Notes: generated from the sequence alone by a model not told the origin. A stretch of DNA of 64,000 nucleotides from Trypanosoma brucei (GCA_000002445.1 CM000208.1:3456001-3520000); one strand, 5' to 3'; counted from the first letter of the stretch, positions 25,396-48,486 are shown. Numbers and translations: made by a program.

Positions 25396-26541
25396 TTACT
25401 TCCCTTCTGAAGTTCCACCGTTATTCTTATTTTTCGCAGCACCTTCTTTTCTACTTTCCTCCGTGGCGGCCTCCTTCGCCTTGTGCTGTTCGTTTCCTAA
25501 CTTTTCCTTTAGTGACCGCTCCCGCCGCGCTCTCACTTCCTGTATTTCGCGAGCTATGCGCCGTCGGTTAGCAATAACGTCGTAGAGAGTGCAGACACAT
25601 CGCCCAATGGCGGCGATGAACATTGCAATCGCCTGATCATTTGCATGCCGCACCATGTCAGTTGATGTCTTCAAGTGATAAATGTGCGGCTGCAGGCTGA
25701 TAACTTCCTGCAAGACACTCAAAACATCCTCTGAGATGGGCATGGTACCCTCTGCAACGTCATTAAGATACTCCTCAATTGACTGCAGAACACGACCGAG
25801 GTGGTCAAGTGAAAGCTCACGCTCCTGGACCTGGGCGGAAAGTGTTGTGATGGTGGAATCGGTAAGGTCCCGCAAGAGATGTTCAATACCGATTTCCTCC
25901 GCCTCTTCCGCGCCGAGATGTGTGGGGATGTTGCGAAACTCCAACGATCGCGCCCCGTCTCGGCCATGCACCGTCGTATAAGCCAGCACGGGCACACCTT
26001 TGTTGTTAGGATCTGTATTCACAATGCAGTACACCGGATTCAGCGAGAAGCGATCTGCAATAAGGAGGTGCAAGAGCATGTCATTCGGCTGCACCGCGCA
26101 CGAGGGACCTGCAGAATACCACCCAACAATCCGCACCTTGGGGTGTACGCGACGAAACATTAGGAACATTTCCTCTGCATAGTTTGTATCGAGAAACCAG
26201 ACATCAGGATTCTGAGGGTCCTCATCAAACGGAACAGCGAAACTGTTGTTGATGTCAAGCACTTGTATTCCACCAGGGTGGCTGAGGTGACGGCCGAGAA
26301 GAAGCCCAGCGACACGCCGCTTTTGTGACACTTTTGCGTTAACACGGGCGTAGTGGTCGACAAGTGAGAGCAAAACAAGTGGGTGAACCTCTACTCGTGC
26401 CCCCGCAGGAGTAAATACCGGAACATCTTTTCCACCATCACGTTCCGCGTCGCCGTCGTCCCCATTGACGGATGTGTCCTGTTGGTCCACTTCAGGATTG
26501 AGTACCGCAGGTTGCGGTTCCTTGGGGTCATCATTGGCCAT
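25396..26541 (-). CDS. RPN8: 26S proteasome regulatory subunit Rpn8 (PSMD7, MPN/Mov34 domain), 381 aa
   Basis: ATG at 26541. VHPLVLLSLVDHYARV, NSFAVPFDEDP, RIVGWYSAGP and AEEAEEIGIEHLLRDL are near-identical to remembered Rpn8/PSMD7 MPN-domain blocks. There is a lysine-rich C-terminal tail. Confidence 0.88.
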   Translation of the reverse strand: MANDDPKEPQPAVLNPEVDQQDTSVNGDDGDAERDGGKDVPVFTPAGARVEVHPLVLLSLVDHYARVNAKVSQKRRVAGLLLGRHLSHPGGIQVLDINNSFAVPFDEDPQNPDVWFLDTNYAEEMFLMFRRVHPKVRIVGWYSAGPSCAVQPNDMLLHLLIADRFSLNPVYCIVNTDPNNKGVPVLAYTTVHGRDGARSLEFRNIPTHLGAEEAEEIGIEHLLRDLTDSTITTLSAQVQERELSLDHLGRVLQSIEEYLNDVAEGTMPISEDVLSVLQEVISLQPHIYHLKTSTDMVRHANDQAIAMFIAAIGRCVCTLYDVIANRRRIAREIQEVRARRERSLKEKLGNEQHKAKEAATEESRKEGAAKNKNNGGTSEGK

Positions 26542-26785
26542 TAGCTATAAGAGTATAGTATATGGGAAACCAAATAACAACAACAACGATGACGACTACG
26601 ACGACTAAAAGTGAAACACAGTCCTCACAAAAATAACAGTGCAAGTTCACCGCTCTCCTTTTGTTCCCTCACTAACCTAACTTCTGATCACTATTTTCCC
26701 CTCGCTCCCTTCCTTCCTTCTTTTTTTTTTTCAATGCGTCTCTCTGGCTCCTACTATTGATCCACACTCCGCAATCGAAGCGGTA

Positions 26786-26920
26786 GCAATGAATGAATGA
26801 ATGAAGGAGGGGAGAGGGGAGGGGGGTCGACAAAGAGAGGAAATCCGCAAGTAAAAAATATAAAAAAAAAAGAAAGGAGAAGAGAGGAGAGAAATAGATA
26901 AACAAGAAGGCAAAACCACA
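26786..26920 (-). promoter_or_regulatory. Candidate polypyrimidine tract and AG trans-splice acceptor region for Rpn8 (polypurine on the plus strand)
   Basis: The plus strand here is G/A-rich (gaatgaatgaaggaggggagaggggagg...aaaaaaaaaagaaaggagaagagaggagag), so the minus strand is pyrimidine-rich. It lies about 250 nt upstream of the Rpn8 ATG with AG dinucleotides following. Confidence 0.3.
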
Positions 26921-28629
26921 AAATTTTGAGCAACACAGCACCAAGTACAGCCAGTAATTAGCCAACAAAAAAAAACACAAACAAAATTGGGCAGTCAGTC
27001 GAAAGAAAAGAAAATAAATAAATAGAGTGTTCCCGGTGAGACACACTGCGATTTTCTCTTTTTTTAACCCATCAGATTTTTTTTGGGGGGGGAGTAGGGA
27101 CTCATTGTTTGTGATGGATGAGGGTTTTTTTTTTTATTTGTCACCCATACGCTACTTCATTTTTCTCTCAAAACCAAAAAAAAAAAAGAAATTTTCTCCC
27201 GATTTTTTTTCTTACTCCCTCCCTCTCGCACGCTTTTGGTATCGAATTTACTTTTAAGTGTACAAAAAAACCCAGACGCTTCATCTGCGACTCGAGCAAA
27301 CGGGGAAAGGGAGAAAAATTGAGTAAAAAGAAAAATAAGAAAGAAAATAACAATAATAACAATGACGATGATGATGATGATAACGATAATGGTAGGCAAC
27401 TATACTATAAAGAGACGAAACGGCAGCAGCAGGAAAAAAAAAAAGGCATGAACCATCCCTCAATTCCTTTCACTCACTCATTCATTTATTTATTCATTCT
27501 CACCCTCATCCTCCACACCCTTCTCTCCCCCTCTGTAAAAACATGCCTCCTCCTCCCTTATGTTCTCCTTCTTTCTTTCTTTCCTTCTTATTTTTTAAAA
27601 AAAATTTTCATCATGAAAAAAAAAAAACAAAGAAAGGAGTAGGAACAGTGGATAGATTTGAAGAAGAGAAAAGACAAAAAGAAAGAGAAAGAGAACAACT
27701 ACACGGTATGTGAAAAGAGTTGAAGATAAAATATTTGCATGGCATCTTGAAGTTGAAATGATCCCAAAGTTTGATGGCATAAGGGATCGCGAGCTGTACA
27801 CAAACACACATATTTTGCATGCATTTGCCTTTGTGTATTTTCCCCCATGCCTGCGCAAGTAATGGCTGAGGCAACTGTAACGATTATTATAATGGGATAA
27901 TGGCAACCCGATACGGTAACACACAGGCACACACACACACAAAAAAAAAAATAATAATAATAGTACTAATAATGTGCTCGCCGCATTATTCTCTTTTTCC
28001 TTTTTTTTTTCCTCTCCCGTTTAGGAACGGTGTGTGTTTCTCGTTCCATCATCTAATAATCGCATCTTTCCCAAAGTTTTTTTTTTCATTTTATCCTTCT
28101 TTTTCTTCACTCTCTCCTCCTTCCTCTGAAGAAACCTCCTCATTCACACAAAACCATCAACGCAAACAAAAGCACAAAATAGACAATAATCACACACCAC
28201 AAGAGAACAACAATAAATGTAATTTGTAGCATTGACGAACGCGCCTTTTTCTTTTTCTTTCTTTCTGTTTTTTTTTCCCCCTCCCCCTCTCATTATTTTA
28301 TTTGGTGTTATGCTGTTGCTGTTGCTGTTGCTGTTGTTGTTGTTTTCCTTCTCTTGACAGCTCCTTCGCCTTCCCTCCCAATGCCATCGTTCCGTGCCTT
28401 CTCATTACCCCTCATCATCATCATCATTATCATTACTATCACATAGAAACCCATATATAATTTCCAGCCAAAAAGAAAAAGAAAAAAGAAAGATTCTCCC
28501 CTTCCCCCCTGATCCTAAAAAAGAAAAAAGAAATTCCTTTTGATGTTTTCTTTTTCTTTCTTCTGCCCCACCACTTTTCATTTCCTTTTTTTTTTAAATT
28601 CGCGTTCTCCTCCTCCGGTCGCATGAATG

Positions 28630-28641
28630 CATATATATATG

Positions 28642-28672
<31 letters not shown>
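28630..28672. repeat. (TA)n microsatellite
   Basis: Direct read: atatatatatgtatatataatatatatatatatatatatata. Confidence 0.8.
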
Positions 28673-31047
28673 CATACATAATCTGTTTAATTTATTTTTT
28701 TTATTTTGCCTATTCCTTTTCTCTTTACCAACTTTGAAAAATATTGTAAAAGAAAAAAAAAAGAAAAAAGGTACAAAGCTGAAGACATACTTTGCTAAAC
28801 AGGTGTTCACCGCTTCGACACTCACCTTTTGCTTATGTTCTCATTTTTTCCTTCCATCCCTTCCTCATTTCTTTTTGTCTTTTTTTTTTCTTTTCTTCCT
28901 TTTCCCTTTCTTTATGCATTTCATATGATAAATAGAAATAAATAAGCATATGAATACGAATACGAATAAATAAACAATCTTTCTTCTTCCTTTCTGCCCA
29001 AACACTGAGTTGTTTACCTCATCTTGTTTGCGTTGCTTTCACACGCCCTTTTCTTTTCCTCTTTTCTCTTATTTTCTTTTTCCCATTTTCGCTTGATGAG
29101 AAAACAAATATCGACGACAACAAAAGAAAAAAAAATTGTGCTCTTTTCTCTTCTCTTCCCTTCACCTTCTTTTTTTTTTCTTTTCTTTCTTTCCTTCACT
29201 TGTACTGTTCAGGAAGTCATTCATTTTCACACCTTATGATTATCTCTTTCACCACGTGCAGATATGTACTAATAACCAAAGTAATAAAGACAATAACATG
29301 AAGCATATGATCGAGTAATGCGCCTCGGTTTTCCCCTTTCTTGCGCTTCTTTAATATATTTTTTTATGTTTTTTTTTTCCTCCTCCTCTTCCTGATCTCC
29401 ATTTTTTTTTTCTTTTTTTCCTTTTTCCTTTTTTCCTTTTTTTTTTTAACTTCCATTTTCATGAATCAGGCAATTGCGAAGAGAAATAATGAAAGAGAAA
29501 CACACAAACACACAAGGAAAGGGATAAACAAAAAAAACGAAAAAAAAAAAGAAGACAACAAAGTGAAACAGAAAAGAAAAAAGAAAAAAAAGGACAAGTG
29601 CAGATTTCATAATCTCAGTGGGTAAAAAAAAAAAAACTTTACCATTTCATCTCCCTTTTTCTGTTCCGACTTTTTCTTTTCATCCTGATTAGAACACAAA
29701 ACGTAAAAAGATATTAACTGTAGACGAAACAATATGAGAAAAAAAGAAAGAAAGAAAAAGGAAGAAAAAAAAAAGAGAAAAGGGATAAAACTTACATTTT
29801 GAAGAAAACAAAACATAGAAAGAGAAAAAAAAAAGAAACGAAAACAAGAAAAAAAAAAGAAGAGCTATGGCACATTCTTGTTTGTTTATTTGTTTGTGTG
29901 TGCGCTAAATCAATAACAAAACACAATAAAAGTGTTTCCACCACTTCAATCAACAGGCGAAAGGGAGACAGATGAGGGGAAAATATTTTAAAAAAAAAAC
30001 AAGGACAGAGAAGGAAAGGGAGCGAGGCAAAAAGAAAAAAAAAGACAAACAAACAATAATCAATCATTACAAGTCGTATTAACAATAATAAAAAGGTGAC
30101 ACCATTACTAATAAGTAATAATCATCATAATAATCTTAGTAGTAACAATAAAACATTAATACTAACAACAACAACATTAAACAATAGCAATAACAACAAC
30201 AATAATGATAATGATAATAACAATAACCATAGAAAACGTACTGTTACAAATTCATTTTCTCCCCTCCTCCCTTCCTTCTTCCTTCTCCATTGGTATCATT
30301 TGAAAAACAAATTGGAAGAGGAAAAAGAAAAATAAAAAGGGAAAACATATTGCGGTTGTTTCATTACTTCTGTCTATGTGCACCTTTTCCAAATCCCTTC
30401 AAACAAACATATTCTTCCGTTATTCTTTTGAGAATTGTCCCTTTTATTTGCCGTTTTCTTTACTTATTTCCCTTTCACTCCGTGTTTTACATTTCATATT
30501 ATTTTATTTTTATTTTTATTTTTTGCTTCATTACTTTTTTCTTTTTCTCTTCCTTCATTCTGTCCCGTTTTTTTTTTTGACAATTTTACAAAAAAAAAGA
30601 AAAAAAGAAAAAGTTTTCCTACATTGTCCCTTCTTCGTTTCTCCATTCGTTAACTCCAAGCCCTTTTCCTTCCCTTTTTTTGTTTGTTTTTCTCCCGCCG
30701 TGTCCCACAACATCTTCTTTTGTTTCTTCCACCGCGCTCCCCTCCTCTACAAAATATTTGTTATAAATCGTTGCATAAACAAAAACAAAACAACAAAAAA
30801 CAAACAAACAAACAACAACAACCAAAGAAAAAAAAGAAAGAAAAATGATTTTCCTCACACCATTCATCTCCCCTCATCAGCCCACCTCTCGCCTAAACAA
30901 AAAAAAAAACAGTAAAGTCATAAAATATCAACAACAGTAACAATAGTAGAAGTAATAGTAGAAGTAATAATAGAAGTAATAATAATAATAATGAGAGTAA
31001 TAATAGTACTAACAATATTAACACTGATATTTCTTAATAATAAAAAA

Positions 31048-31080
<33 letters not shown>
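31048..31080. repeat. (GAT)11 microsatellite
   Basis: Direct read: gatgatgatgatgatgatgatgatgatgatgat, flanked by (AGT/AAT)-rich repeats. Confidence 0.85.
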
Positions 31081-32489
31081 AATGATATATATATAAATAA
31101 AAAAAGAAGACAATAGTGGTAGTAGTAGTAATAATAACAATAACGAAATGATACGAGAGAAGTTACAAAATGCACCATTTTTTTTTTTAATCCCTTATTT
31201 CATTTTCATTTACTTGTGCATGAATACACATATATCCATATATTCATCCATGAATAAATAAATACCTAAACACATTCTTATGTTTAAATATAAATAAATA
31301 TATAAACACATGATTATACAAATATATATGTATATATAAATATAAGACGCGCACCTGCGTAGTTCACTTCATCTTTTTTTTTCTTAATTTCCCTCCTTTT
31401 CTTTCTCTTCTTCCTGTGTTTTTTGGTGCCGCTGATTTCATTTTAGTTTTAATTTTTGTTTCGTTAAATTGATCACTTCATTTGCAGCTGTTGAACCTAC
31501 GAACAAAATTTAAAAAAGCGCTAGCAATCGGAGCCTTCTTCGTCGTTGGGTGCTGATGTTATTTTGAATGAATGAATGAAAGAAAGAAAGAAGGGTAACT
31601 TATTTCATTTTATATTATATTATATTAATTTTGTATGAATTTATTCTACTTTGCATTACTTGCTTTTCTCTCTCTCTTTTTTCTTTCTCTTCTCTCTTTG
31701 TTGATCCATGCATGCATTTCTATTCTTTTCGCTTCATTTCCCCTCATCTTCATAACCATCATATTTACACCAAAACATATTTTTTTTCTTTTCTTTTTTA
31801 TTTTTCCTCGCTCTCATTAAATTCCATCACTAAACTTTCTCTCACCCCCATTCCCCTAATTGCGTTATTTCCGCAATCCCCATGAAGTCGCGGTCGCACA
31901 CTATCCTAAAAATATAAATATCTGTTATACATATACATATATATATATTTATATTTATTTATTTTTTTAAATACTCTGTTTTATTTCGTTTCCTTTTCTT
32001 TTTGTTCTTGTTGTTGTTATTGCTGTTGTCGCTTGTTTTGTTTCTTTTTAATTATTATTATTATTATTTTTTTTTCTTTTTACGTCCTCGTTTTCATTCA
32101 TTTTATTAACTTTCTTTGTTTTTATTTTTATTTTTTTCTTTTTAAAATACCGTTTCATTTTAGGAACTTCTCCTCTCTTATTTTATACCATATCATCGTT
32201 ATATCACCACCACCATTGCCATCGTATTATTATTATTATTATCATCATCATCATCATCAATATTGTTACCCCCTCCTGTTTGTTCGAGTACAAAAAGCAG
32301 AGAGATACAAACCAAACAACAACAACAAGGAAAAATAATAATAATAATAATAAAAAAACAAAAGATGGAAAAAAGGGGGAAAAACAAAAAAACAGAAGAA
32401 GAAAAAAACGAACACGTATTTAAAAACTTACAAGTAAAAGAGAAAAAGAGTAAAGAGAAAACGAAAAATAAGAAGCGGGAGAAATGAGA

Positions 32490-32558
32490 TTTATTTGATT
32501 CCTCATGTGGACTCCCTTCCCTGGTAGATGCAGGAATCCACATGAGGAATCAAATAAA
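32490..32558. repeat. Perfect 22-bp inverted repeat (stem-loop with a 25-nt loop)
   Basis: Left arm tttatttgattcctcatgtgga at 32490..32511. Right arm tccacatgaggaatcaaataaa at 32537..32558. The two arms are exact reverse complements, and the loop is ctcccttccctggtagatgcaggaa. Confidence 0.8.
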
Positions 32559-33232
32559 ACATATAAAAATCAAAACAATACAAAAAAAACAAAAAAAAGG
32601 AGGAGGTCGCAGAGGCGAAGCGACGTGCTGAAGAGTGTACTGAAAACAAATGAAAGGAACAAAAAAAAAAGGCAAAAAAAAAGAGAGAGGGGTGTTGAGA
32701 CCATTGAATGTTTTTGATTGCCAGCAAAGCGATAAAAACAAAAATAAAAGTAAAAAAAAACTATTCTACCGAAGGAGGGGGGAAGAAGGCTTTTTTTAAA
32801 AGGACAAACAAGGGGAATAGGGAAGAAATGAACAAAAAGCAAAAAAAAAAAACACCGCTATCGGAAGTGAGTCATAACACTACGCACGCTATATATATAT
32901 ATATATATATGCGCCTCTTTTTATACGGGTGTGCGCGTGCGCTTTCCTTTTTTTTTCTTTCTTTCTCCTCTTCATTCCTAAATATTTATTAGTTCGTGTG
33001 GCATCGAGTGAAATCCGTCGTTGCGTGCGGGGTCGCTAAAAAAAAAAAAACAAAAACAGAAAAGGGTAAAGGGTAAAAACTGTCAACCTCCATTATTCTT
33101 TTTCTTTTCCCTAATTATTTTACCTTCAATTTTATTTTGGCTCCTCTTCTTTTTTTTTAATTTCATTATTTCCTTTTACACCAAACACATTTACACTCCT
33201 TTTTCTTTTTATAAATATACTGCCGTTCTCAC

Positions 33233-33236
<4 letters not shown>

Positions 33237-33270
<34 letters not shown>
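33237..33270. repeat. (TA)n microsatellite
   Basis: Direct read: tatatatatatatatatatatatatatata followed by tttatataaatatatataaataaatat. Confidence 0.8.
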
Positions 33271-33276
<6 letters not shown>

Positions 33277-36200
33277 AATATATATAAATAAATATTTCTT
33301 TCTCTCACTGTACCTCTACCCTTTTAAACATTTCCCAACAACCACTGGGCTCAATAGAAAAAAAAAAAGTGACAACAACGGTATTATCACCGTGAAAAAG
33401 AGAAAGAAAAAGATATGGTAAAAAAAAACATAAATACAAATATAAATAGAAAGAAGGTGGGGAATAATTTAAAAAAAAACTGAAAGAAAAAAAGAAAAAA
33501 ACAAGGGGAAAGAAGTCAAATCCAAAAGACGTTAACGGTGAAATAACACAAATTGGAAGAAAAGATAAAAATGAAGATAAATGGGACTTTTATAATTTAA
33601 TAAAAGAAAAAAAACAACAAAGGAGACATTTTATTTTGCTTCACCGGCTTTCTTTTCTTTTTCCTGCTTTCATGGGAGAAGGAAGGACGAAGGAAAGAGA
33701 AACTTTACAAAAAAAAAAAAGAAACGAAAACGAAAAATTAAAAAAAACAAAAAAAAACAAAAAGCAAAAGGGAATGGAAAAAGTGACACCAGGCGACAAA
33801 GTGGAAAATGAGAAGAAGATAAAAGACAAAAAAACAGAAGGGAGAAGAGGAGGGGAACAAAAAGCAAAAACGTAATATCGCTCGAATAAAAATAAAAATA
33901 GAAACATAATTTTTTTTAAAAAAAAGAAGAGAGTCAACAAAGAGAAAAGTAGAAAAACAAAAAGTTAACAAAAACAAAAAAAATCATAGCGTGGACCCCA
34001 AGGGAAACTATTCTGTACTGTGCTTTTATTCATTTGGTTCACTTTCCTCCCTTGTCAAAGCGTCACCATAACGGTGACAACAAACGGTAGAACGCGATAA
34101 TAATAATAATAATAATAACAGTAATAATAATAATAATTGAACTCATATTTTAGTGCACGCGTGCGTGTGAGTGCAGGTTTAGGTTTGTGTACGCGTGAAC
34201 ACTTATTAATATTATATTTTAAAGGGTTGTTATTATTATCGTTGGTGTTAATATCGTTAGCATTATCATCATTATTATTAGGATCGAAGGAGCAAAACAA
34301 AAATATTTCGAAACATCAACAACAACAAAAAAAAAAAGGGAACTCTGGATAGGACCACGGGAGTTTAAACGGGGAGGATGGAAAAAAAACAAAAATAAAG
34401 AAGAAAAAGAGAGAAAACGGTGGATCTAGTGGAAATGGATGCCAAATAAACAAACAAATATATATATATATTGGTAATGGTATTGATATTGATATTGATA
34501 TATTGATATATTTAATAAAATGGAAAAAGCAAATAACAAGAAAGAGCAAAAGTGAAGACTATCAGACAACAACGACAACAAATGAAAGAATGAAATAAAA
34601 TCAAAAACTATAAAATTTTTAAAAAATTAAAAAAAGGAACTACAGAGACTTATGTGACGAATGAAGGAGCGAAGTGGGCGAACAGGAGCAGCATTAGCTG
34701 GCATACACACATACACATATGTTAATATGTAAATATGTAAATATATAAATTAAATACTAACCTAATATATAAACATATATGTACTTACCGGCACGTAAGC
34801 GTAGACATAGTTCCCTCACGCCCACAGCCCCTACTTCAAACATAAACATATATCCGTAGCACATATAATATTATATTTATATATACAAACATACATATAT
34901 ACGAAATAAGGTCATCCATCACCACTTCCATCAATATCTTTTTTTCTTTTCTTTTCTTATTTCATTGTGCTTTTGAGTTTCTCTCCCCCTCGCTTTTTTT
35001 TTCTTTTTTAACCTTTTGATTTGTTCGTTTGTTTCTCATTCTTTTTTTTTTCCTCCTACTCCCCCCCCCCTCTCCCTTTTTCCCGTAGTAAAGATTATTA
35101 TTATTATTATTTCTTTTTTTTTCCTCTCCCTCTCTCTCTCTCTTCACAGAAAATACAGTAAGGCACACATCTCCCCACTCACAGCACTAAACACAAAAGA
35201 GAGATTTTTCCTTTTTTTTTTGTTTTTTTGTAAAAGGAAAAAAAATGTACATACCAAAAACTAAAACAAAAAGAACAATAATAAAGAAAAAGTGAACGAA
35301 AACGAAAACAATGAGCGACAAGCGTAAACTTAATAAATAAAAAAAATGAAAAAAAATGAAAAATGAAAAAACAGACAAAAACCTCTTCGTGTTATTCCCC
35401 GTCCTCAGACCTCATTCTCATCATCTCACCACACAAATTTTCGCCACTTAAACGCCAGCTGTACTTTCGCCCCCTCCCCCCCCCCCAAAGAAAAAAATAT
35501 AAATATAAATATAAATAAAAATATTAATATTAATATTAACTTCGCGGTGTCACAAACTTCCCTTCTTCCTTTTCTCTCCTTTTCGTATCGAATACCTTCG
35601 CACAAACACACACATATAAATACATATAAAAAAAACGAAAAAAAAAAAATATATATATATATGTATATTTCGTACACGGTGGCATCCCTACTACAAATAT
35701 TTGAGAAGAACAAAACAAGAAAAAAACCTTTGTGTATTCCTCTTTTTTCCTTCTTGGTTATTTTAATTTTTTTAAAAAAAAATTATTTATTTATCGATCT
35801 CTGCATTGTCTTCACCGAATCGCGCACGCTTCATTCTTTTCCTTTGAAATCATTTTAAAAAAAAAACTCGAAATTGTTTCGTATGCGCTTGCGGGCTCTC
35901 ACGCCCCTCCCCCCAAACAGAGAAACCAACTAAAGTTTAAAACAAATGACAATAGTTTCTGTGCATATTTTCCCTCTCCTTAACAAGTACAAGAAAAAAC
36001 AAAAAAAAAAAAAGAAAAGCACACATTCACACACTTTGGTCGCCGCAAATGTGATTTCCATCCCCTTCGTTCTCCTTCCTTTCCCCCTTCTCTCCTTTTC
36101 TATCTTGGAAAAAAAAAATAATAATAAAACAAAATAAAGTAAAATAAAGTAAACAGTTTAATTATCTTCCCCCTTTTCACCCCACACACCCACACCGCAC

Positions 36201-37510
36201 GCACGCACGAACGTAAATTTTTATGCGTTGAGACTCTTCCTTTTCTTTCTTTATTTCTTTACTAATTTATTCATCTCTTGAGTGTTTTGTCATAGTTTTA
36301 TCATTATTTTTTTTTTTTTGCGTCTCCTTCCTTGATGCCGCTCAGCCGCTACACATGCCTTTTCTCGCCTTCCCTTCGTTTCTCTTCGGTGTTTTCTTTT
36401 TGCTTTCCTCCTTCTTCTTTTTCCCCCCTTTTTTCTCTCTTTTCTTTTTCTTGTTTTAGTTTTAATTTTAGTTTTAGTTCTATTTTTATTATTGTTGTTG
36501 CTTTCCCCTTGTTTTGCTCCTCCATTTCCTTCATTCCTTCCCTTGTTTTAATGTTGCGGTTTTTTGTTCTGTTCTCTCCTTCAATGCTTCTTCCTTCTCC
36601 GAAATCGTGTTCGGTACGGGTTCAGATGAGAAGTCACACACACACACAAAAAAAAAAAAAAGAGATTCGGCCTCCTCCCGCTCCCCCTTTAGGTTCCAAA
36701 AAAAAAAAAAAAGAGGCGTAACAGCACTCACAGCACTGTTTCTCCATGTTTCTTTTCCTTCTTCTTCTTTCTTCCTCTTCTTTTGTTCGTTTAACATCAA
36801 TGATATGTTTCGGTGAAAAGATAAAACGAACTGTAGAAGAAAATGGGAGAAGGAGGAAGACCGATGCAGTGGCACACCATCTGCCAAAAGCGCATCTTTC
36901 TTCTGCTCTTCTTTTCTTTTTATTTCTATTCCTTCTCCTTCCTTTCCCATTTTAGTCACTTCCCCTTCACCTTCCCATAACGCCACACGCCACATGCCGT
37001 CCAAAGACAGTTTGGTGACGGTAGAAAAGGTTTTTTTTTCCCCATCCCACCACTTTAAATACCCCTCAAACATAAATAAATAAATTTATATTTATATATA
37101 TATATATATACTTTTTTTTTCGTTTCTCTGTGCGCGAGCGGCTCCACGGCTGACGGTCAAGAATTTCTGAAACTCTGCTCCCTTCCCCTCCCTTCCCTTC
37201 CTCCTTCAGTAACAACACAAAAAGACGCTCCCTCGTCCTCCTCTAAGCGGAAGAGGAGTTCTGGGGTGAAACGAACTTCGAAACAAGAAAAAAAAAAAGG
37301 TCTCGCAACACTCCCCACCTCCTAACCAATAAACACACACTTACAATCATTCCGCTACCAACCAACTCACTATCCTATACCTACGTGTTGAACTGCACGG
37401 AGCACAATTTATCTTTCCAGTCACGCAAAGACAAAAAGGAAGCGTCAAACCTCAGCGTCACTTTCTTCCACAAAGTGTAGTTCTGCAGCCGTTAACACTT
37501 TCACACACAC

Positions 37511-39367
37511 TTACATGGTGGGGCCTCCTCCTCCTCCTCCAAACATCCCGCGCATATTTCCTCCCGATGCTCCAAATCCCCCGCTGCCGAAACCGCCACC
37601 ACCGCCACCACCACCGCCGCCGCGACCACCGCCCATTCCAAAACCACCGCTGTTGCCGCCACGCCCGAAAACGTTGCTCATTCCAAAACCACCGCTGTTG
37701 CCACCCCGACCGCCGCGATAACCACCGCCACCACCGCCGCCACCGCGACCACCGCCCATTCCAAAACCACCGCTGTTGCCACCACGCCCGAAACCGCGAT
37801 AACCGCCGCCACCACCTCCGCGGTTATTGTTGTTGTTATTATTGTTGGGGCGCTTGGCCAGTGCACGAACTTCAGGAGAAATGACCTGATTGGTCTCATT
37901 GAGAAGTGGAATGAGATCATCCACAATGTTGCGGTTCTTCTCGTTAAAAAATGAAATGGCGACGCCCACTTTGCCAGCACGGCCTGTGCGGCCGATGCGA
38001 TGCACGTAATCGTCAATATTGCTCGGCATGTCATATTGGATCACAACCCCGACATTGGGGATGTCGAGTCCGCGAGAAGCTACGTCTGTTGCGACAAGAA
38101 CTTGACAAGCGCCTGACTTAAACAGCCTGAGAGCCTCTTCGCGCTCACGCTGCACACGATCGCCGTGGATAGAAACGCACGCCAACTCGCTATTGCGCAG
38201 GAAACGCTCCAAATAATCGGCATCACGCTTCTTTTCGACAAAAACGAGAACAAGCTTGCCTTCATTTTCACGAAGTAACGTGAGTAGCGCCTGACGCTTG
38301 TCCGGGTCCTCAATCCAGCGAACGTCCTGAGTGATATTCTCCGTTGTGGAGCCCACGCGTCCAACCTGAAGGAACGAGTGGCGGCACATAAACTCCCTGG
38401 CGAGCCGCTGAATCTCAACGGGAAAAGTGGCAGAATAGAGCAGAGTTTGGCGCTGACCTGCCCTTGGCATATCACTGTCTGGACCTTGAACAATCATCCG
38501 AATTTGCGGTTCAAATCCCATATCCAGCATTCGATCAGCTTCATCCAATATCAGGAAGCGGATTTCAGAGAAGCGGACGTATCCACGAGAGAACATATCC
38601 ATAAGTCGTCCAGGGGTCGCAACAAGCAATTTACACCCGCGGGAGAGCTCATGTACCTGGTGGCGTGGATCAGCACCGCCATAGACGACTACACAGCGGA
38701 CAGGCGTATGGTAGGTGAACTTGCGGGCTTCTCCATAGATCTGAAGGGAAAGCTCCCTCGTTGGTGCAAGGATAAGGGCTTGGGGGCTGGAGTGGCTGCC
38801 CGGGCTGTACGGAGGGCGGTTCGAAATATTCAACAGTATCTCGTTGATAGCAGGAATAAGGTACGAAGCTGTTTTCCCCGAACCAGTTTGTGCACACGCC
38901 ATAAGATCCCGATGATTGAGCGCTGTTGGAATACCCAAGCTCTGCACAGGCGTTGGCTTGGTGTACCCACAGCGTTTCACATTTTCCAGCAGCACCGGAA
39001 CCATGTTCATTTCACTGAACGATAACACTGGCGCAATGTCGTTTGGCGTGATAGTCATATTCACCTCTCCGTGTTGGTCAAAGTTGATGCCCGGAGTGTG
39101 ATCCTTAAATATGTCCTCATCGGCTGGCTCCTCACGGTGGTAGCCATGGCCGGAGGTTTCCCCTTGGTACGGCACGTTGCGACGGATAAATTCGCCACGA
39201 CCACGGGAGGGGCCATCAAAACCTTCGCGCGGCCTTTGCTGATAACCACCATAGTTGTTGTACCCAACCTGGTGGCCGGCTTCGCCAAATGCTGGGGCGC
39301 GTGCCCACGGGTTGGCGTTGGGGTTGAACTGCTGATGGCCGCCCTGGCCGAAATTCATGCCGTGCAT
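37511..39367 (-). CDS. HEL67: DDX3/Ded1-family DEAD-box RNA helicase (trypanosomatid HEL67-like) with a C-terminal Gly/Arg-rich tail
   Basis: Motifs Q (TKPTPVQ), I (AQTGSGKT), Ia (PTRELS), DEAD (LDEADRMLDMGF), SAT and HRIGRTGRAG are present. The track ORF begins at TTG 39568 with a hydrophobic, pyrimidine-tract-derived extension. I place the start at ATG 39367..39365 (MHGMNFGQGG), directly downstream of a PPT-like stretch. Confidence 0.85.
   Translation of the reverse strand: MHGMNFGQGGHQQFNPNANPWARAPAFGEAGHQVGYNNYGGYQQRPREGFDGPSRGRGEFIRRNVPYQGETSGHGYHREEPADEDIFKDHTPGINFDQHGEVNMTITPNDIAPVLSFSEMNMVPVLLENVKRCGYTKPTPVQSLGIPTALNHRDLMACAQTGSGKTASYLIPAINEILLNISNRPPYSPGSHSSPQALILAPTRELSLQIYGEARKFTYHTPVRCVVVYGGADPRHQVHELSRGCKLLVATPGRLMDMFSRGYVRFSEIRFLILDEADRMLDMGFEPQIRMIVQGPDSDMPRAGQRQTLLYSATFPVEIQRLAREFMCRHSFLQVGRVGSTTENITQDVRWIEDPDKRQALLTLLRENEGKLVLVFVEKKRDADYLERFLRNSELACVSIHGDRVQREREEALRLFKSGACQVLVATDVASRGLDIPNVGVVIQYDMPSNIDDYVHRIGRTGRAGKVGVAISFFNEKNRNIVDDLIPLLNETNQVISPEVRALAKRPNNNNNNNNRGGGGGGYRGFGRGGNSGGFGMGGGRGGGGGGGGYRGGRGGNSGGFGMSNVFGRGGNSGGFGMGGGRGGGGGGGGGGFGSGGFGASGGNMRGMFGGGGGGPTM
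37560..37860. repeat. Internal tandem repeats encoding the RGG/GGFGM tail of the helicase
   Basis: The core cattccaaaaccaccgctgttgcc[g/a]cc[a/c]cgcccgaaa occurs three times on the plus strand, which gives GRGGNSGGFGM three times on the minus strand. Long (ccgccacc)n Gly-codon runs separate the copies. Confidence 0.7.
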
Positions 39368-40811
39368 TTTCAAATATCTTTTTTTTTTTGTGAGGGGCAA
39401 GATGGGTGCACAAGGTGGTGAAAGACGTGTCAAAGATTTAAAGCAAACAAGTAACGCTCGTGTAAAGAAGGACAGAGGACAAACAGTTAGCATAAACACG
39501 AAAACGGAGCAAAAAAGCAGCGGACCAAAGCATGGATACGCATGTGAGCAGTACGCAAAACAAAACAAAAAGGAATAAAAAATAGATCACGTTAAAAAAG
39601 CATTGAGGTGATCACACGAATGGCTTGGGCTCACCTCAAACAATACTCACATCACTCACGAACACATAATTCGATGTTGGTGTGCCTCATCCAACGTTCC
39701 CTTGAGTGTTTTTGCACACAATATTCAGTGGAAGGGAAAAGTAACAAGATGTAGCAGCAAAGGGGGAAAACAATGGAATACAACAAAACAAAGTAAGCAA
39801 TATAACAAGCTTCAACGGCCCAACATTACACAAAACATGTTTTGCAACCACGTCACTGCACAAAAGCCTCAATCTTTTTTTCCCCACCACCACCAGCATA
39901 AATAAGGGGTCTCATATAATATGCCTGAGATAACCTCTTTTCCTCACAGCAACAGCCCAGTAATTGCATCACCCCACCCCCACCCGTTAAAAATAAAAAA
40001 ATAAAAAGGACAAGGGCAACACCATCGCGTTTGTTTTTGGAACAAATTATGCACGTCCGCGCGCGGATGTACGCACGGAAACTAACAATGAAACTAAACC
40101 TTATGTCTCTCAGCCTCCCGTGAGAATATACGCTGCGTACACTTACACAGAAATTCGGTGAGGCCACGGCAGTGCAAGTAGTCCGCTTTGTAATGGGGCA
40201 CAACATCAGTGACAACTCTTTGGCACGAATTGCAGTGTTGCCTGAGGAAAGAAATCGAGAAAAAAAAGTGTTTACACTTTGATCCTTCCGTCAATATCGT
40301 AAGGTTGCAGCATAAACCCTCCATGCTGTTCATATCTCAGTGCAAGCGCAGATGCAACAGCCGCCGTTCACTATTCCACGGATGGCATAATCATCGGCGG
40401 CATTAAGTTCCTGTCTGTCCTTACCTACAAATAATGATCTCAACAATAAACAAATAGCAAATACACGAAGGAAAAACAAAACGCAGGAGAAGGACACATG
40501 TGAAATGTTACAAGTGAGGCCGACGAAACCTCCGAAACCACAGGTTACACCACTTCTGCGCGGCGAATCCAAACATGCAGAACAACCTACACATTACATA
40601 TCCCTCATTCTTTTCTAGTTCCCACAAGAATCCTTCCCACAACGCACGTAAACGAACTCCACCACAGGTGGTAAACACGTGGCAGTATAACGGACGCTGA
40701 GGAAGTAAAAAAAAAAAAATGTACATATATTGGTCTGTATAGATATGTTTGCGTACGCATAAATTAATACAAGGAAGCGTCTTACACCGGGGTCGATTCA
40801 CTGCCTCCGCC

Positions 40812-43186: not shown

Positions 43187-45343
43187 CTACTCTACATCCA
43201 AGCCCCATCCCTCGGCAACATTCGTCCCAACTGATTCCTCCCCGTCTCTGCTGCTGTTTCCAGCGTCCAAATCATCGCCGCCGCCACTAGTGCTATCAAC
43301 GTTCTTGGAGAGAGCCCCAAGGGGTGCAGAAACAAGAGGCGTCCGCCACTCTACATTCATTTCTGGGTACTCTTGAGCACGGCGATCACGTAATTTCAAT
43401 TGCTCTAGTTCAAGTACCTCATCACAGCGAAGAAGACCCAATCGCGGAATGAAACGGCTGTTTTCATTCGTAGTTTTATCAGGCATATCCAGCATCGTAC
43501 CACATTTGCAGATACCCTTCGACCACTCTCCAACAAAATACTGCTGCTTCTGCGTATAGCACCACAAGCCCGGACCTTCGCGAAGACCAAGGGCCCAGTA
43601 ACCGTCATACCAGTCCCCGCTTGTTAAACGTAAGATCCCCCTACCGTAGTGCTGATCATCACGGAACTCACCCTTGTAGATATCTCCATTAGCGAAGAAC
43701 AACCTCCCAAACCCATCCCGCTTACCCCCGGACCACCCACCCTCGTAAACATCGCCATTCTCCTCCCACGATATTCCTACACCATCGCGCTTTCCTGCGA
43801 GCCATTCCCCACGATAGACACGTACCCACGGTGACTTCACATCTTTTCGCAACCAGAGTGTTCCCTCGCCTTCACGTAATCCGTTGCGGAACTCACCCCG
43901 GTATTTGCTAAGTTTTTTTAGTAGTTCACCGAAGCCGCCAAACTTCCCGTCCTCCCACTGACCTTCGTATGATTCGGTCTTACGAGGCGTAAGAAAGATC
44001 CGTTTACGCATTCCGTGTGTGTCCACTTTTCCATGGAGGCGTTGGGCTCGAGTCTTGCAACGCTCAATGATGGCCGCCTCGGGATCCACCGCTGGGGATT
44101 TCACGGCCCCACGCCGTGGGTCAAACCCGTGTAATTTCCGATATATTTGCAATAATTTCTCCTCTGCCTCATTCAGGGGACAGCCATTAGCATCCGAGCC
44201 ATACAACTCCGCCACAGCTTCAGCACCGAGTAGCTCCTCTTGCCGGCGCAGCTCTTTCAGCAATAGGCCGCGTTCAGACACAACGACTATCGCCTTCAGG
44301 GCACAGCGCAACCGGCGGAAGTACTGCAAGTTTTCAAGCGTGTCAATTGACTCCTTAAACTGCAATGGATTTGTGCATCCAACAACAAAGGAGGCCTCAA
44401 GTCCAGAGATGAACTGGGACATTAATCGTGAAAACTTACACTCCATGAAAAATGACTGACTACTGCAGATGAGGTCATGGTGACCCTCTGGGGTTGTCGC
44501 CCGCGACCTACGCTTCTCACGGTAATTAATAGAATGAATGACTGCTGCTCGAAGAAGAGTTACACTTACGTTGATACCACAACCCTCCTTCAGCTGATCA
44601 CCTGCAACGCCCTTCAAACCGAGGCAGTCTGTCCCTTTGAGATGTACAAATGTCATTGAGCGTATTACAGTCTTTCCCGAATCCACTTTGGGAGTTGTGG
44701 AAACCATAAGCTGCAGGAAACCATGCCAACGACTCTGCCGTTGCTTGGTGCGACGGACACGATTCCTGTTTCCACGTTCAAGTTGTTCGAGAAAATCCTC
44801 AAATGTTGGCACCCTAACTGCCATCAGATTTGGTATGACGAGACGGTCGAAAGTGTCACGGGTAACCGTATACGCTCTCTCTGATCCATCTTCGTCCAGC
44901 AAGTTGTCCTCCACGGAGTCGCGGTTCATCTCCCAATAACGCAGCACAATATCCGTCTCAAATTCCCCCGCAACAGCCCCGAGTCGTTGATAAAGTCCCC
45001 CCACCGTGTCATAAATAAGACCAACAGATTCGTTGTCCCCGAATAAGGTGTGAGTCTTACCTGTAACAGCAAACCCCATGACAACCACGTTGGAGCTGAG
45101 ACCTTGAGCAACCAGATCAATCATCTCCAAGCCTATCGCATGGTATAGCTCCTCCTGCTTTGCAGAGCAGGGGAAGAAATAGTCACAGTCGTACATCAAA
45201 CCTTCTGTGGCATCGGGAGAGTAGGCAAAAAGTTTTCCCTCGCTCTGCCTGACGTGTAATTTCACGCCAAGTATATCCTCTTCCGCAATGGGCCGCTCCC
45301 GCACAGCGATACGGACCCGGTCGAACGAACTGGAATTCTCCAT
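43187..45343 (-). CDS. Kinesin-like protein with a degenerate motor domain and C-terminal MORN repeats (718 aa from MENSSS)
   Basis: The track start 45490 is GTG; the first ATG is 45343. It has a kinesin-type N-terminus (VRIAVRERP) and a P-loop GFAVTGKT. Switch I is weakened (SRWHGF versus SSRSH), and switch II is HLKGTD instead of DLAGSE. The C-terminus carries at least six Y-x-G-x-W-x-x-G-x-x-x-G MORN units (YEGQWEDGKFGGFG, YRGEWLAGKRDGVG, YEGGWSGGKRDGFG and others). Confidence 0.6.
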   Translation of the reverse strand: MENSSSFDRVRIAVRERPIAEEDILGVKLHVRQSEGKLFAYSPDATEGLMYDCDYFFPCSAKQEELYHAIGLEMIDLVAQGLSSNVVVMGFAVTGKTHTLFGDNESVGLIYDTVGGLYQRLGAVAGEFETDIVLRYWEMNRDSVEDNLLDEDGSERAYTVTRDTFDRLVIPNLMAVRVPTFEDFLEQLERGNRNRVRRTKQRQSRWHGFLQLMVSTTPKVDSGKTVIRSMTFVHLKGTDCLGLKGVAGDQLKEGCGINVSVTLLRAAVIHSINYREKRRSRATTPEGHHDLICSSQSFFMECKFSRLMSQFISGLEASFVVGCTNPLQFKESIDTLENLQYFRRLRCALKAIVVVSERGLLLKELRRQEELLGAEAVAELYGSDANGCPLNEAEEKLLQIYRKLHGFDPRRGAVKSPAVDPEAAIIERCKTRAQRLHGKVDTHGMRKRIFLTPRKTESYEGQWEDGKFGGFGELLKKLSKYRGEFRNGLREGEGTLWLRKDVKSPWVRVYRGEWLAGKRDGVGISWEENGDVYEGGWSGGKRDGFGRLFFANGDIYKGEFRDDQHYGRGILRLTSGDWYDGYWALGLREGPGLWCYTQKQQYFVGEWSKGICKCGTMLDMPDKTTNENSRFIPRLGLLRCDEVLELEQLKLRDRRAQEYPEMNVEWRTPLVSAPLGALSKNVDSTSGGGDDLDAGNSSRDGEESVGTNVAEGWGLDVE

Positions 45344-45674
45344 ATAGTAACGACCCAATGTGCCTCCTTCCAAATTTGATATAACTAAAATGAGCTTGAT
45401 GCCCACGCAGACAGCGAGAAAGGTAGTTAACAATTTTAAAAGAAAAAGACGGAGAAGAAGAGAGAAATTACCTGTTGAAAAACGTTTCACTCTTTTTCGG
45501 TAGTGTGCGGAAGCTCATGTCGCCTCTTTGTCTTCACAAGAGCCTGTGAAACAAAAGGGCCTCATTGAAGGAAAAAAAAACCGAATTCCTCTGTGCATTA
45601 GCAAAAACAAGCAATAATAACAGAAGAGAAATTAATTCAAAGAAAAATAATTGAAACCACCGTTGACCGCCGAT

Positions 45675-47685: not shown

Positions 47686-48486
47686 TTAAGCAGCCACCAT
47701 CTTCCTTCCCATAGAGAGGAACTCGGAGTGCTCGTCGGTGGGGTCGCGCGACACCTCCGTCTCCGCCCAGAGGTCGGGGGTAAGGAAGCCGTATGTCTTG
47801 CGCAGTGCATAGAATGTGGCCATGATGAAATTACCACGCGTACGCGTCTTACCACATGAGCTAGTATATACGTCCTCAACGCCGGCAAACTCAAGAATCT
47901 TCTTCGGCACAGGCGCAGCAACGATACCAGCACCACGTGGAGCAGGGATCAAGCGAACGGCAACGGAGCCGCACTTCCCGGTTACCTTGATAGGGATTGT
48001 ATGCGGTTCACCGATCTTGTTACCCCAGTAGCCACGGCGCACAGGCACAATACTCAGCTTCGCAGCGATCATTGACGCACGGATGGCCAGGGACACCTCC
48101 TTGCCGACGCGGGCGCCGACACCAATGTGGCCGTTACCGTCACCAACAACATTGAAGGCCTTGAAGCGTGTGCGCTGTCCGGCAGACGTTGCCTTCTGCA
48201 CGGGGAAAACAAGCATCATCTCATCACGGAGGTCGCCTTCGCGGATCAGTTGGTCCACGATCTGATGCTCTTTGATGGGCATCGAGAAGAGGAAGATTTC
48301 CTCCAGCGAGGTGATCTTTTGATCCTTCACAAGGCGGCCAAGTTTTGTGCATGGCACCCATTCCTTCTCATCACCACCACCGCCACGACCGCCACGACCA
48401 CCGCGACCGCCGCGACCGCCACGTCCGCCACGGCCACGACCGAAGCCGCGCTGCTCGCCACCTGTACCGCGTGGTGCGTCAGCCAT
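47686..48486 (-). CDS. RPS2: 40S ribosomal protein S2 (uS5) with an N-terminal (GRG)n tract, 266 aa
   Basis: ATG at 48486. N-terminal [16 protein letters not shown], followed by a conserved S5 domain ([31 protein letters not shown]...[15 protein letters not shown]...[38 protein letters not shown]). Confidence 0.92.

What the first reader, a model, noticed from the sequence alone, without database searches (positions are those of the whole stretch)
43187..45343. Kinesin-like protein with a degenerate nucleotide switch, fused to MORN repeats
The motor-like N-terminus keeps the kinesin start (VRIAVRERP) and a P-loop (GFAVTGKT). Switch II, however, reads HLKGTD instead of DLAGSE, and switch I is weakened. 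That predicts loss of ATP hydrolysis and microtubule gating, as in a pseudokinesin. The C-terminus carries at least six MORN units, which are membrane or cytoskeleton tethering repeats. This domain combination is unusual and could mark a cytoskeletal scaffold, for example one linked to the flagellar pocket or hook complex, rather than a motor.
Basis: partly seen in the sequence, partly recalled or inferred. Interest (0 to 1): 0.5.

Follow-up and report, generated by a model that had tools for sequence, protein, structure and literature searches.

The report
Known radial-spoke pseudokinesin (Kinesin-MORN) gene
This is the Trypanosoma brucei gene for "Kinesin-MORN", a protein with a catalytically degenerate kinesin-like head fused to a MORN3-type repeat domain; cryo-EM has already placed it as a fixed part of radial spoke 2 in the flagellar axoneme, so the sequence observation is correct but not new.

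Summary
A minus-strand CDS at 43187-45343 encodes 718 aa, with a kinesin motor-domain match (Pfam E=1.6e-28) followed by seven MORN repeats. The P-loop GFAVTGKT is intact. Switch I reads KQRQSRWH against NxxSSRSH. Switch II reads HLKGTD against DLAGSE.

The protein is already known. It is 100% identical over 718/718 residues to chain 4y of PDB 9E5C, the T. brucei 96-nm axonemal repeat. It is the orthologue of chain 8a, "Kinesin-MORN", in 9Y6S from Leishmania tarentolae. A 2025 preprint lists it (Tb927.10.14570) as a radial spoke 2 (RS2) component and reports slow swimming after deletion in L. mexicana. A 2017 paper shows axonemal localisation.

Its C-terminal half is the orthologue of MORN3/FAP207, the conserved spoke-base protein. 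So "pseudokinesin scaffold, not a motor" fits the evidence. The suggested flagellar pocket or hook complex location is wrong.

What I add: the fusion and its altered pocket motifs (GKT, RWH, x-LKG) are conserved across Discoba (kinetoplastids, euglenids, Heterolobosea, a jakobid). The pocket motifs are the most conserved part of the head. What the head does at RS2 remains untested here. Novelty: already known. Interest is low.

The parts
43187..45343 (-). Complete CDS of Kinesin-MORN (Tb927.10.14570 orthologue), 718 aa plus stop
   Evidence: ORF list. 100% identity over 718/718 to PDB 9e5c chain 4y. An identical protein is encoded with the same neighbours on two NCBI Trypanosoma-group assemblies.
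44315..45322 (-). Kinesin-like head (aa 8-343)
   Evidence: Pfam PF00225 E=1.6e-28. AF2 model with pLDDT mostly above 90 in this part. Foldseek TM-score (target-normalised) 0.80-0.87 to CENP-E, Kif15 and kinesin-1 motor domains.
45290..45301 (-). N4 adenine-binding motif RxRP (RERP, aa 15-18), retained
   Evidence: Aligned with the RVRP of CENP-E. It reads R-x-(R/K)-P in nearly all Euglenozoa orthologues (T. cruzi RERA) and is degenerate in the Heterolobosea-type sequences.
45053..45076 (-). P-loop / Walker A GFAVTGKT (aa 90-97), intact
   Evidence: G90, G95, K96 and T97 are invariant in 28 orthologues.
44723..44746 (-). Degenerate switch I KQRQSRWH (aa 200-207), against NxxSSRSH
   Evidence: R202, R205, W206, H207 and G208 are invariant in 28 orthologues.
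44627..44644 (-). Degenerate switch II HLKGTD (aa 234-239), against DLAGSE
   Evidence: K236 and G237 are invariant. The first residue is H or Q in all Euglenozoa, N or H in Heterolobosea-type sequences, and D in the jakobid and one unassigned sequence.
44456..44536 (-). End of helix alpha4 plus an extended L12 with a basic cluster (HSINYREKRRSRA..., aa 270-296), at the K-loop position
   Evidence: This is an insertion relative to canonical kinesins in the phmmer alignments. H270 is invariant and R275 nearly so. The basic cluster recurs in orthologues, but the rest of the loop is poorly conserved.
43979..44314 (-). Neck-like strand and helical linker (aa 344-455), with the conserved G-x-P-L-T-E-x-E-E element (P389, E392, E395)
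   Evidence: AF2 secondary structure. Invariant columns.
43484..43978 (-). Seven MORN repeats (aa 456-620), MORN3/FAP207-type
   Evidence: Pfam MORN E=1e-15. One-stretch match of aa 438-646 to residues 19-228 of a 241-aa MORN3 chain (9fqr_MS, E=2.5e-34), to the 240-aa MORN3 of 8j07 (E=5.4e-33) and to Chlamydomonas FAP207 (7jts_m, E=2.3e-31). Translation. Seven hairpins in the model.
43364..43483 (-). Post-MORN segment shared with MORN3 (CGTM-D...IPR-GLL...VLE) and a helix (aa 621-660)
   Evidence: Aligned with MORN3 residues up to 228. P633 and R634 are nearly invariant.
43187..43363 (-). Acidic, poorly conserved tail predicted disordered (aa 661-718) plus stop
   Evidence: pLDDT about 30. Consensus fraction 0.24. 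Only 661 of 718 residues are modelled in 9e5c_4y.

Best explanation
The gene encodes Kinesin-MORN, the Trypanosoma brucei-group orthologue of the radial-spoke base protein MORN3/FAP207. It carries an N-terminal kinesin-fold head whose catalytic switches are degenerate. It is a stationary structural subunit of radial spoke 2 (RS2), present once per 96-nm axonemal repeat.

Shown:
- Sequence identity to the chain modelled in the T. brucei axoneme cryo-EM structure.
- Assignment to RS2 in the Leishmania structure table.
- Axonemal localisation of an eYFP fusion.
- A slow-swimming phenotype after deletion in L. mexicana.

Inferred:
- The seven-repeat MORN sheet sits in the RS2 base/stalk as MORN3/FAP207 does in other eukaryotes.
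- The head does not cycle ATP, because the switch II Asp is His and the switch I SSRSH is QSRWH.
- The head probably still holds a nucleotide or uses the remodelled pocket structurally. RxRP is retained in Euglenozoa, and the GKT, RWH and LKG residues are the best conserved part of the head across Discoba.
- The head therefore acts as a rigid add-on module of the RS2 base, either attaching to the doublet or to neighbouring regulators, and helps the spoke transmit regulatory signals needed for normal beat.
For: Identity and placement:
- 100% identity over 718/718 to 9e5c_4y, and E=8e-177 to 9y6s_8a "Kinesin-MORN".
- Entry titles are the 96-nm doublet repeats of T. brucei and L. tarentolae.
- Preprint Table S1 lists Kinesin-MORN (T. 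brucei orthologue Tb927.10.14570) under RS2, with 96-nm periodicity and "appears in model: Yes".
- Table S3 for the L. mexicana deletion: speed 4.44 um/s and directionality 0.169, scored growth "Slow" and motility "Slow". Lines scored "Normal" in the same table run about 7-9 um/s with directionality about 0.3. Flagellum length was normal.
- The eYFP fusion localises to the 9+2 axoneme.

MORN3/FAP207 relationship:
- One-stretch match to MORN3 and FAP207.
[quoted passage not shown] FAP207 is at the base of RS1 and RS2 in Chlamydomonas.

Head:
- Motif register.
- Conservation of the altered motifs across 28 orthologues and across Discoba.
- The pocket motifs are the most conserved head segments: switch I 0.78 and switch II 0.80, against a head mean of 0.61.
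- Kinesin fold confirmed.
Against: - No ATPase, nucleotide-binding or microtubule-binding data were available to me.
- I could not read the T. brucei structure paper (Xia et al. 2025, not held) or the coordinates. I therefore do not know what the head touches, or whether nucleotide density is present.
- The knockout phenotype comes from a screen table in a preprint, without add-back data that I saw.
- The Walker A lysine, the switch II glycine and the switch I arginine are intact, so residual hydrolysis cannot be excluded from sequence alone.
Confidence: 0.85

Rival explanations
1. The head is a rigor-type microtubule anchor. Having lost turnover, it stays bound to the A-tubule lattice in the canonical kinesin footprint and bolts the RS2 base to the doublet. 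This is a sub-mechanism of the best explanation.
For: The kinesin fold is preserved, with helix alpha4 and a conserved basic cluster (YREKRRSR / YRAKRR / MRRRK) at the alpha4/L12 K-loop position. Part of the L12/alpha5 motif is kept (FMECKFSRLM against YRDSKLTRLL). The protein sits at a spoke whose base lies on the doublet. ATPase-dead kinesins that bind microtubules statically are known (KIF26; my own knowledge).
Against: The main beta-tubulin contact loop L8/beta5 and most of L12 are the least conserved parts of the head (0.47 and 0.42). The L12 Arg of YRDSK is Met here. I could not inspect contacts in 9E5C or 9Y6S.
Confidence: 0.3
2. The head is a protein-docking or nucleotide-sensing module, not a tubulin binder. 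It occupies the RS2-base position where FAP207 docks inner dynein arm c in other organisms. It contacts neighbours such as CFAP206, and its remodelled pocket may bind ATP or ADP without hydrolysing it.
For: In Chlamydomonas, IDAc docks to RS2 through FAP207 and p28. In Leishmania, IDAc is not RS2-associated, and T. brucei lacks IDAc altogether. So the ancestral FAP207 docking role is absent or changed exactly where the extra head exists. The pocket motifs are the most conserved head elements, while the tubulin-contact loops are not.
Against: The correlation may be coincidental. The fusion also exists in Heterolobosea and a jakobid, whose IDAc arrangement is unknown to me. No binding data exist.
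Confidence: 0.3
3. It is still an active, perhaps slow, kinesin ATPase that uses non-canonical catalytic residues.
For: GxxxxGKT, the switch I Arg, the switch II Gly and an acidic residue at the E position (D239; E in Leishmania) are kept.
Against: The switch II Asp is replaced in all Euglenozoa and the switch I serines are lost. The Asp corresponds to the DxxG / Walker B Asp of the kinesin/myosin/G-protein class (established knowledge). The protein is fixed at one copy per 96-nm repeat in two cryo-EM structures.
Confidence: 0.05
4. One reading: a scaffold of the flagellar pocket or hook complex.
For: MORN repeats also build TbMORN1 of the hook complex, and the MORN array gives secondary matches to MORN1 structures (E about 2e-25).
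Against: The best MORN match is MORN3/FAP207, not MORN1. The protein localises to the axoneme. It is modelled in RS2.
Confidence: 0.02

Closest known systems
Kinesin-MORN of trypanosomatids (Tb927.10.14570; LtaP32.0450; LmxM.31.0420), PDB 9E5C chain 4y and 9Y6S chain 8a
   Same: It is the same protein: 100% identical to the T. brucei chain and 43-44% identical to the Leishmania orthologue over the full length. It is an RS2 component with 96-nm periodicity.
   Different: Nothing. The window simply carries this gene.
MORN3 (mammals) / FAP207 (Chlamydomonas, Tetrahymena Cfap207)
   Same: The seven-MORN domain plus the post-MORN segment align end to end (E=2.5e-34 to 2.3e-31). Both are radial-spoke proteins of RS2.
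   Different: MORN3 and FAP207 are about 240-256 aa with no kinesin head. FAP207 docks IDAc at RS2 and is also at RS1. In Leishmania IDAc is not RS2-associated, T. brucei has no IDAc, and Kinesin-MORN is listed only under RS2.
Catalytically inactive kinesin-fold proteins (KIF26A/B; Vik1/Cik1 motor-homology domains) - recalled from my own knowledge, not tested here
   Same: A kinesin fold kept for binding or scaffolding rather than stepping.
   Different: Vik1 lacks a nucleotide site altogether. Here Walker A and RxRP are intact and the altered switches are themselves strongly conserved. The location is axonemal, with a fused MORN domain.
Axonemal kinesin-9 (KIF9/KLP1) of the central apparatus - my own knowledge
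   Same: A kinesin-family protein built into the axoneme as a resident component that affects beating. Two chains of a mouse sperm central-apparatus structure (9ijj_c, 9ijj_d) appear among the fold matches, but I did not identify which proteins they are.
   Different: Kinesin-9 has canonical switches and sits on the central pair. Kinesin-MORN has degenerate switches and sits at RS2 on the doublet.
TbMORN1 (hook complex)
   Same: MORN repeats.
   Different: MORN1 gives a weaker, partial match, and it has a different localisation. My own knowledge: it is built of MORN repeats only.

Membership tests
Kinesin superfamily (motor domain PF00225) | Significant profile match and kinesin fold | tested here: met
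   Pfam E=1.6e-28, 100.1 bits against a cutoff of 29.3. Foldseek TM 0.80-0.87 to motor domains.
Kinesin superfamily (motor domain PF00225) | N1 P-loop GxxxxGK[ST] | tested here: met
   GFAVTGKT, aa 90-97. Invariant G/G/K/T.
Kinesin superfamily (motor domain PF00225) | N2 switch I NxxSSRSH | tested here: not met
   KQRQSRWH. Only S204, R205 and H207 are kept, and Trp replaces the last Ser in nearly all family members.
Kinesin superfamily (motor domain PF00225) | N3 switch II DxxGxE | tested here: not met
   HLKGTD. Asp is replaced by His (H or Q in all Euglenozoa) and Ala by Lys in nearly every family member.
Kinesin superfamily (motor domain PF00225) | Microtubule-stimulated ATPase / motility | not testable with these tools
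   Needs recombinant protein assays.
MORN3 / FAP207 radial-spoke base proteins | Seven MORN repeats followed by the MORN3-type C-terminal segment, alignable over nearly the whole of MORN3 | tested here: met
   aa 438-646 align with residues 19-228 of a 241-aa MORN3 chain, E=2.5e-34. FAP207 E=2.3e-31. Seven hairpins.
MORN3 / FAP207 radial-spoke base proteins | Resident of the radial spoke base/stalk in the 96-nm repeat | tested here: met
   An identical sequence is a chain of the T. brucei 96-nm repeat structure. It is listed under RS2 in the Leishmania model table. Placement within RS2 is taken from the table, not from coordinates.
MORN3 / FAP207 radial-spoke base proteins | Docks inner dynein arm c through p28 (Chlamydomonas / Tetrahymena) | not testable with these tools
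   The literature says IDAc is not RS2-associated in Leishmania and is absent in T. brucei. This function is therefore probably not shared.
   MORN1 matches are weaker and partial (E about 2e-25, two stretches) than the MORN3 match. The protein localises to the axoneme.

The most novel reading that the evidence does not exclude
The remodelled nucleotide pocket is not decay but a conserved new function. The pocket keeps Walker A GKT and carries RWH in place of RSH and x-LKG in place of DLAG; RxRP is also kept in Euglenozoa. This state is held across Discoba from a jakobid to trypanosomes. On this reading the head binds ATP or ADP without turnover and acts as a nucleotide-state or mechanical sensor at the RS2 base. 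It would have taken over, or displaced, the ancestral FAP207 role of docking inner dynein arm c. I did not find this idea in the papers I could read.
Probability: 0.15. Interest if true: 0.55.

Novelty: already known. Interest (0 to 1): 0.15.

Why it matters
As a genome-scan finding it adds nothing new. The gene is annotated and named, it has been localised to the axoneme, resolved by cryo-EM in two species, and deleted in Leishmania with a motility defect.

Its residual interest is mechanistic. It is a clear case of a kinesin fold recruited as a fixed building block of the axonemal regulatory apparatus. The altered active-site residues are more conserved than the rest of the head over a very deep phylogenetic range. 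That makes the question "what does a dead kinesin pocket do in a radial spoke?" directly testable with the existing structures and knockout lines. Flagellar motility is needed for trypanosomatid transmission, so lineage-specific spoke parts have some applied interest.

Tried and rejected
- The plus-strand reading of the given coordinates is full of stops; the gene is on the minus strand.
- The longer GTG ORF to 45490 is rejected as the start, because the deposited chain and the orthologues begin at or near MENSSS.
- A literature search for "9E5C" as a word returned only irrelevant papers.
- The T. brucei structure paper (Xia et al., Science 2025) is not held under its DOI or PMC id. I therefore could not learn what its authors say about the head.
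- The Doran et al. 48-nm paper does not mention the protein.
- A search for "kinesin-17"/"MORN", meant to place the head in a named kinesin family, was swamped by "morning" and gave nothing useful. The kinesin family assignment is left open.
- A search for LmxM.31.0420 in main texts found nothing.
- An Rfam scan of the whole window found nothing.
- The source organism of the GC-rich outlier P0063 could not be named; only the run id SRR2000255 was returned.
- I considered the hook-complex/MORN1 reading and an active-motor reading, and rejected both for the reasons given under the rivals.

Full report
**What is at the coordinates**

The interval 43187-45343 is one open reading frame with its stop codon on the minus strand. 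It encodes 718 aa beginning MENSSSF. All large ORFs in the 64-kb window lie on the minus strand, which is the pattern of a trypanosomatid polycistronic unit. The immediate neighbours are a TPR protein, ribosomal protein L17 (L22p/L17e family), a WW/FAM210-domain protein and ribosomal protein S2 (S5 family). The identical protein, with the same neighbours, is encoded on NCBI assemblies GCA_000210295.1 (record FN554973.1, 3.9 Mb) and GCA_001457755.2. Protein databases carry it under Trypanosoma equiperdum and UniRef "MORN repeat-containing protein 3".

**Checking the observation**

- Pfam gives Kinesin PF00225 at E=1.6e-28 (aa 46-342) and MORN PF02493 at E=1e-15.
- phmmer alignments against solved kinesins fix the register of the motifs:
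  - P-loop GFAVTGKT against GQTASGKT of CENP-E;
  - switch I KQRQSRWH against NQRSSRSH;
  - switch II VHLKGTD against VDLAGSE.
- Direct translation of the corresponding window coordinates returns exactly these strings.
- The N-terminal RxRP motif (RERP) is present.
- The L12/alpha5 motif is partly kept (FMECKFSRLM against YRDSKLTRLL). It is preceded by an insertion carrying a basic cluster (YREKRRSR).
- The MORN part has seven periods. These appear as seven beta-hairpins in an AlphaFold2 model with mean pLDDT 82.
- Foldseek places the head on kinesin motor domains with target-normalised TM-scores of 0.80-0.87.

**What it is**

The protein is 100% identical over all 718 residues to chain 4y of PDB 9E5C. 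It matches chain 8a of 9Y6S, named "Kinesin-MORN", at E=8e-177. Foldseek reports these entries as the 96-nm repeat of the T. brucei flagellar doublet microtubule (released 2025-03-12) and of the Leishmania tarentolae doublet (released 2025-12-17). 661 and 620 residues are modelled, respectively.

The preprint that describes 9Y6S (bioRxiv 10.1101/2025.11.06.687033) lists Kinesin-MORN in its Table S1. The entry (LtaP32.0450, LmxM.31.0420, T. brucei orthologue Tb927.10.14570) sits under radial spoke 2 together with CFAP206, RSP8 and RSP15. It has 96-nm periodicity and "appears in model: Yes".

Table S3 of the same preprint reports the L. mexicana deletion. Swimming speed was 4.44 um/s and directionality 0.169, with growth scored "Slow" and motility scored "Slow". 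Flagellum length was normal. Lines scored "Normal" in that table run about 7-9 um/s with directionality about 0.3.

An earlier paper (PMC5540225) used Tb927.10.14570 "kinesin-MORN"::eYFP as an axoneme marker in live T. brucei.

**The MORN half**

Residues 438-646 align in one stretch with almost the whole of MORN3 (E=2.5e-34 and 5.4e-33) and with Chlamydomonas FAP207 (E=2.3e-31). Matches to MORN1 are weaker and partial.

- FAP207 is at the base of RS1 and RS2 in Chlamydomonas, where it docks inner dynein arm c (IDAc) through p28.

The protein is thus the MORN3/FAP207 orthologue with an added kinesin-like head. In Leishmania IDAc is not RS2-associated, and T. brucei has no IDAc. The ancestral docking role is therefore probably not retained.

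**How old and how constrained the degenerate head is**

A word-indexed search found 47 close relatives. All are kinesin+MORN fusions except one N-terminally short Angomonas sequence carrying MORN only.

An exhaustive HMMER search of 1.84 billion representatives found further, more divergent full-length fusions. Source names place the family in:

- Trypanosoma, Leishmania and other trypanosomatids;
- Bodo saltans;
- the prokinetoplastid Papus;
- the euglenids Keelungia, Urceolus, Ploeotia, Euglena and Eutreptiella;
- the heteroloboseans Percolomonas and Pharyngomonas;
- the jakobid Stygiella.

In an alignment of 28 orthologues, G90, G95, K96, T97, R202, R205, W206, H207, G208, K236 and G237 are invariant. 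Across the wider set nearly all members share "GK[TS]", "(R/K)W(H/N)" and "x-L-K-G". The residue at the switch II Asp position is D in Stygiella and one unassigned sequence, N or H in the Heterolobosea-type sequences, and H or Q in all Euglenozoa.

Per-segment conservation shows that switch I (0.78) and switch II (0.80) are the most conserved parts of the head, whose mean is 0.61. The tubulin-contact loops L8/beta5 (0.47) and L12 (0.42) are the least conserved. The altered pocket is therefore under purifying selection in its altered form.

**How it most likely works**

- Shown: it is a fixed, periodic RS2 subunit that is needed for normal swimming.
- Inferred from the motifs: the head cannot run the normal hydrolysis cycle, because the switch II Asp and two of the three switch I serines are gone. 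It may still bind nucleotide, because Walker A and RxRP are intact and the switch I Arg and switch II Gly are kept.
- Open: I could not determine whether the head anchors the spoke to the A-tubule like a rigor kinesin, or serves as a docking or sensing module for neighbouring complexes. The conserved basic cluster at the K-loop position favours tubulin-tail binding. The poor conservation of L8 and L12, and the strong conservation of the pocket, favour the second view. Inspection of the deposited coordinates would settle this.

**Comparison and novelty**

This is the already named, localised, structurally resolved and genetically tested Kinesin-MORN. The proposed pocket or hook-complex location is wrong.

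My additions were not found in the papers I could read: the Discoba-wide distribution, the graded change at the switch II Asp position, and the finding that the remodelled pocket is the most conserved part of the head. They are incremental. I rate novelty as already known and interest as low.

Noticed in passing
window 26600-37400: A stretch of about 10 kb that is AT-rich (25-36% GC, against about 50% elsewhere). It has no ORF of 200 aa or more, only low-complexity ORFs and short microsatellite-like repeats. It interrupts an otherwise continuous minus-strand gene array between an ORF ending at 26541 and a DEAD-box helicase gene (37511-39568). It has no long tandem arrays and no Rfam hit. Its nature is unexplained.
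   Followed up: partly
window 43187-45343 and proteins P0062, P0072, P0076 and others: The kinesin+MORN3 fusion is not restricted to trypanosomatids. It occurs in euglenids, a prokinetoplastid, Heterolobosea (Percolomonas, Pharyngomonas) and a jakobid (Stygiella). The residue at the switch II Asp position is D in the jakobid, N or H in Heterolobosea-type sequences, and H or Q in Euglenozoa. The LKG and RWH substitutions are shared by nearly all.
   Followed up: partly
window 44456-44536 (aa 270-296): An insertion at the kinesin L12 (K-loop) position that starts with a conserved basic cluster (YREKRRSR; YRAKRR in Leishmania; MRRRK in euglenids). Euglenids carry a further extension of 10-20 aa here.
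   Followed up: partly
window 45344-45490: The mechanical ORF extends 49 codons upstream to a GTG, adding a hydrophobic leader (MKRFSTGNFSLLLRLFLL...). Neither the deposited protein nor the Trypanosoma orthologues support this extension, so it is probably not translated.
   Followed up: yes
window 1-64000: Every ORF of 200 aa or more for which I found a Pfam domain is on the minus strand, consistent with a single polycistronic transcription unit. Ribosomal protein genes L17 (45675-46175) and S2 (47686-48486) lie immediately upstream of the Kinesin-MORN gene in the direction of transcription.
   Followed up: partly
protein P0063 / locus L001: A GC-rich, divergent kinesin-MORN relative from sequencing run SRR2000255. 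It keeps the switch II Asp (FCDLKG) but lacks the family-typical Trp in switch I (GLASHAF). Its source organism is not identified.
   Followed up: partly
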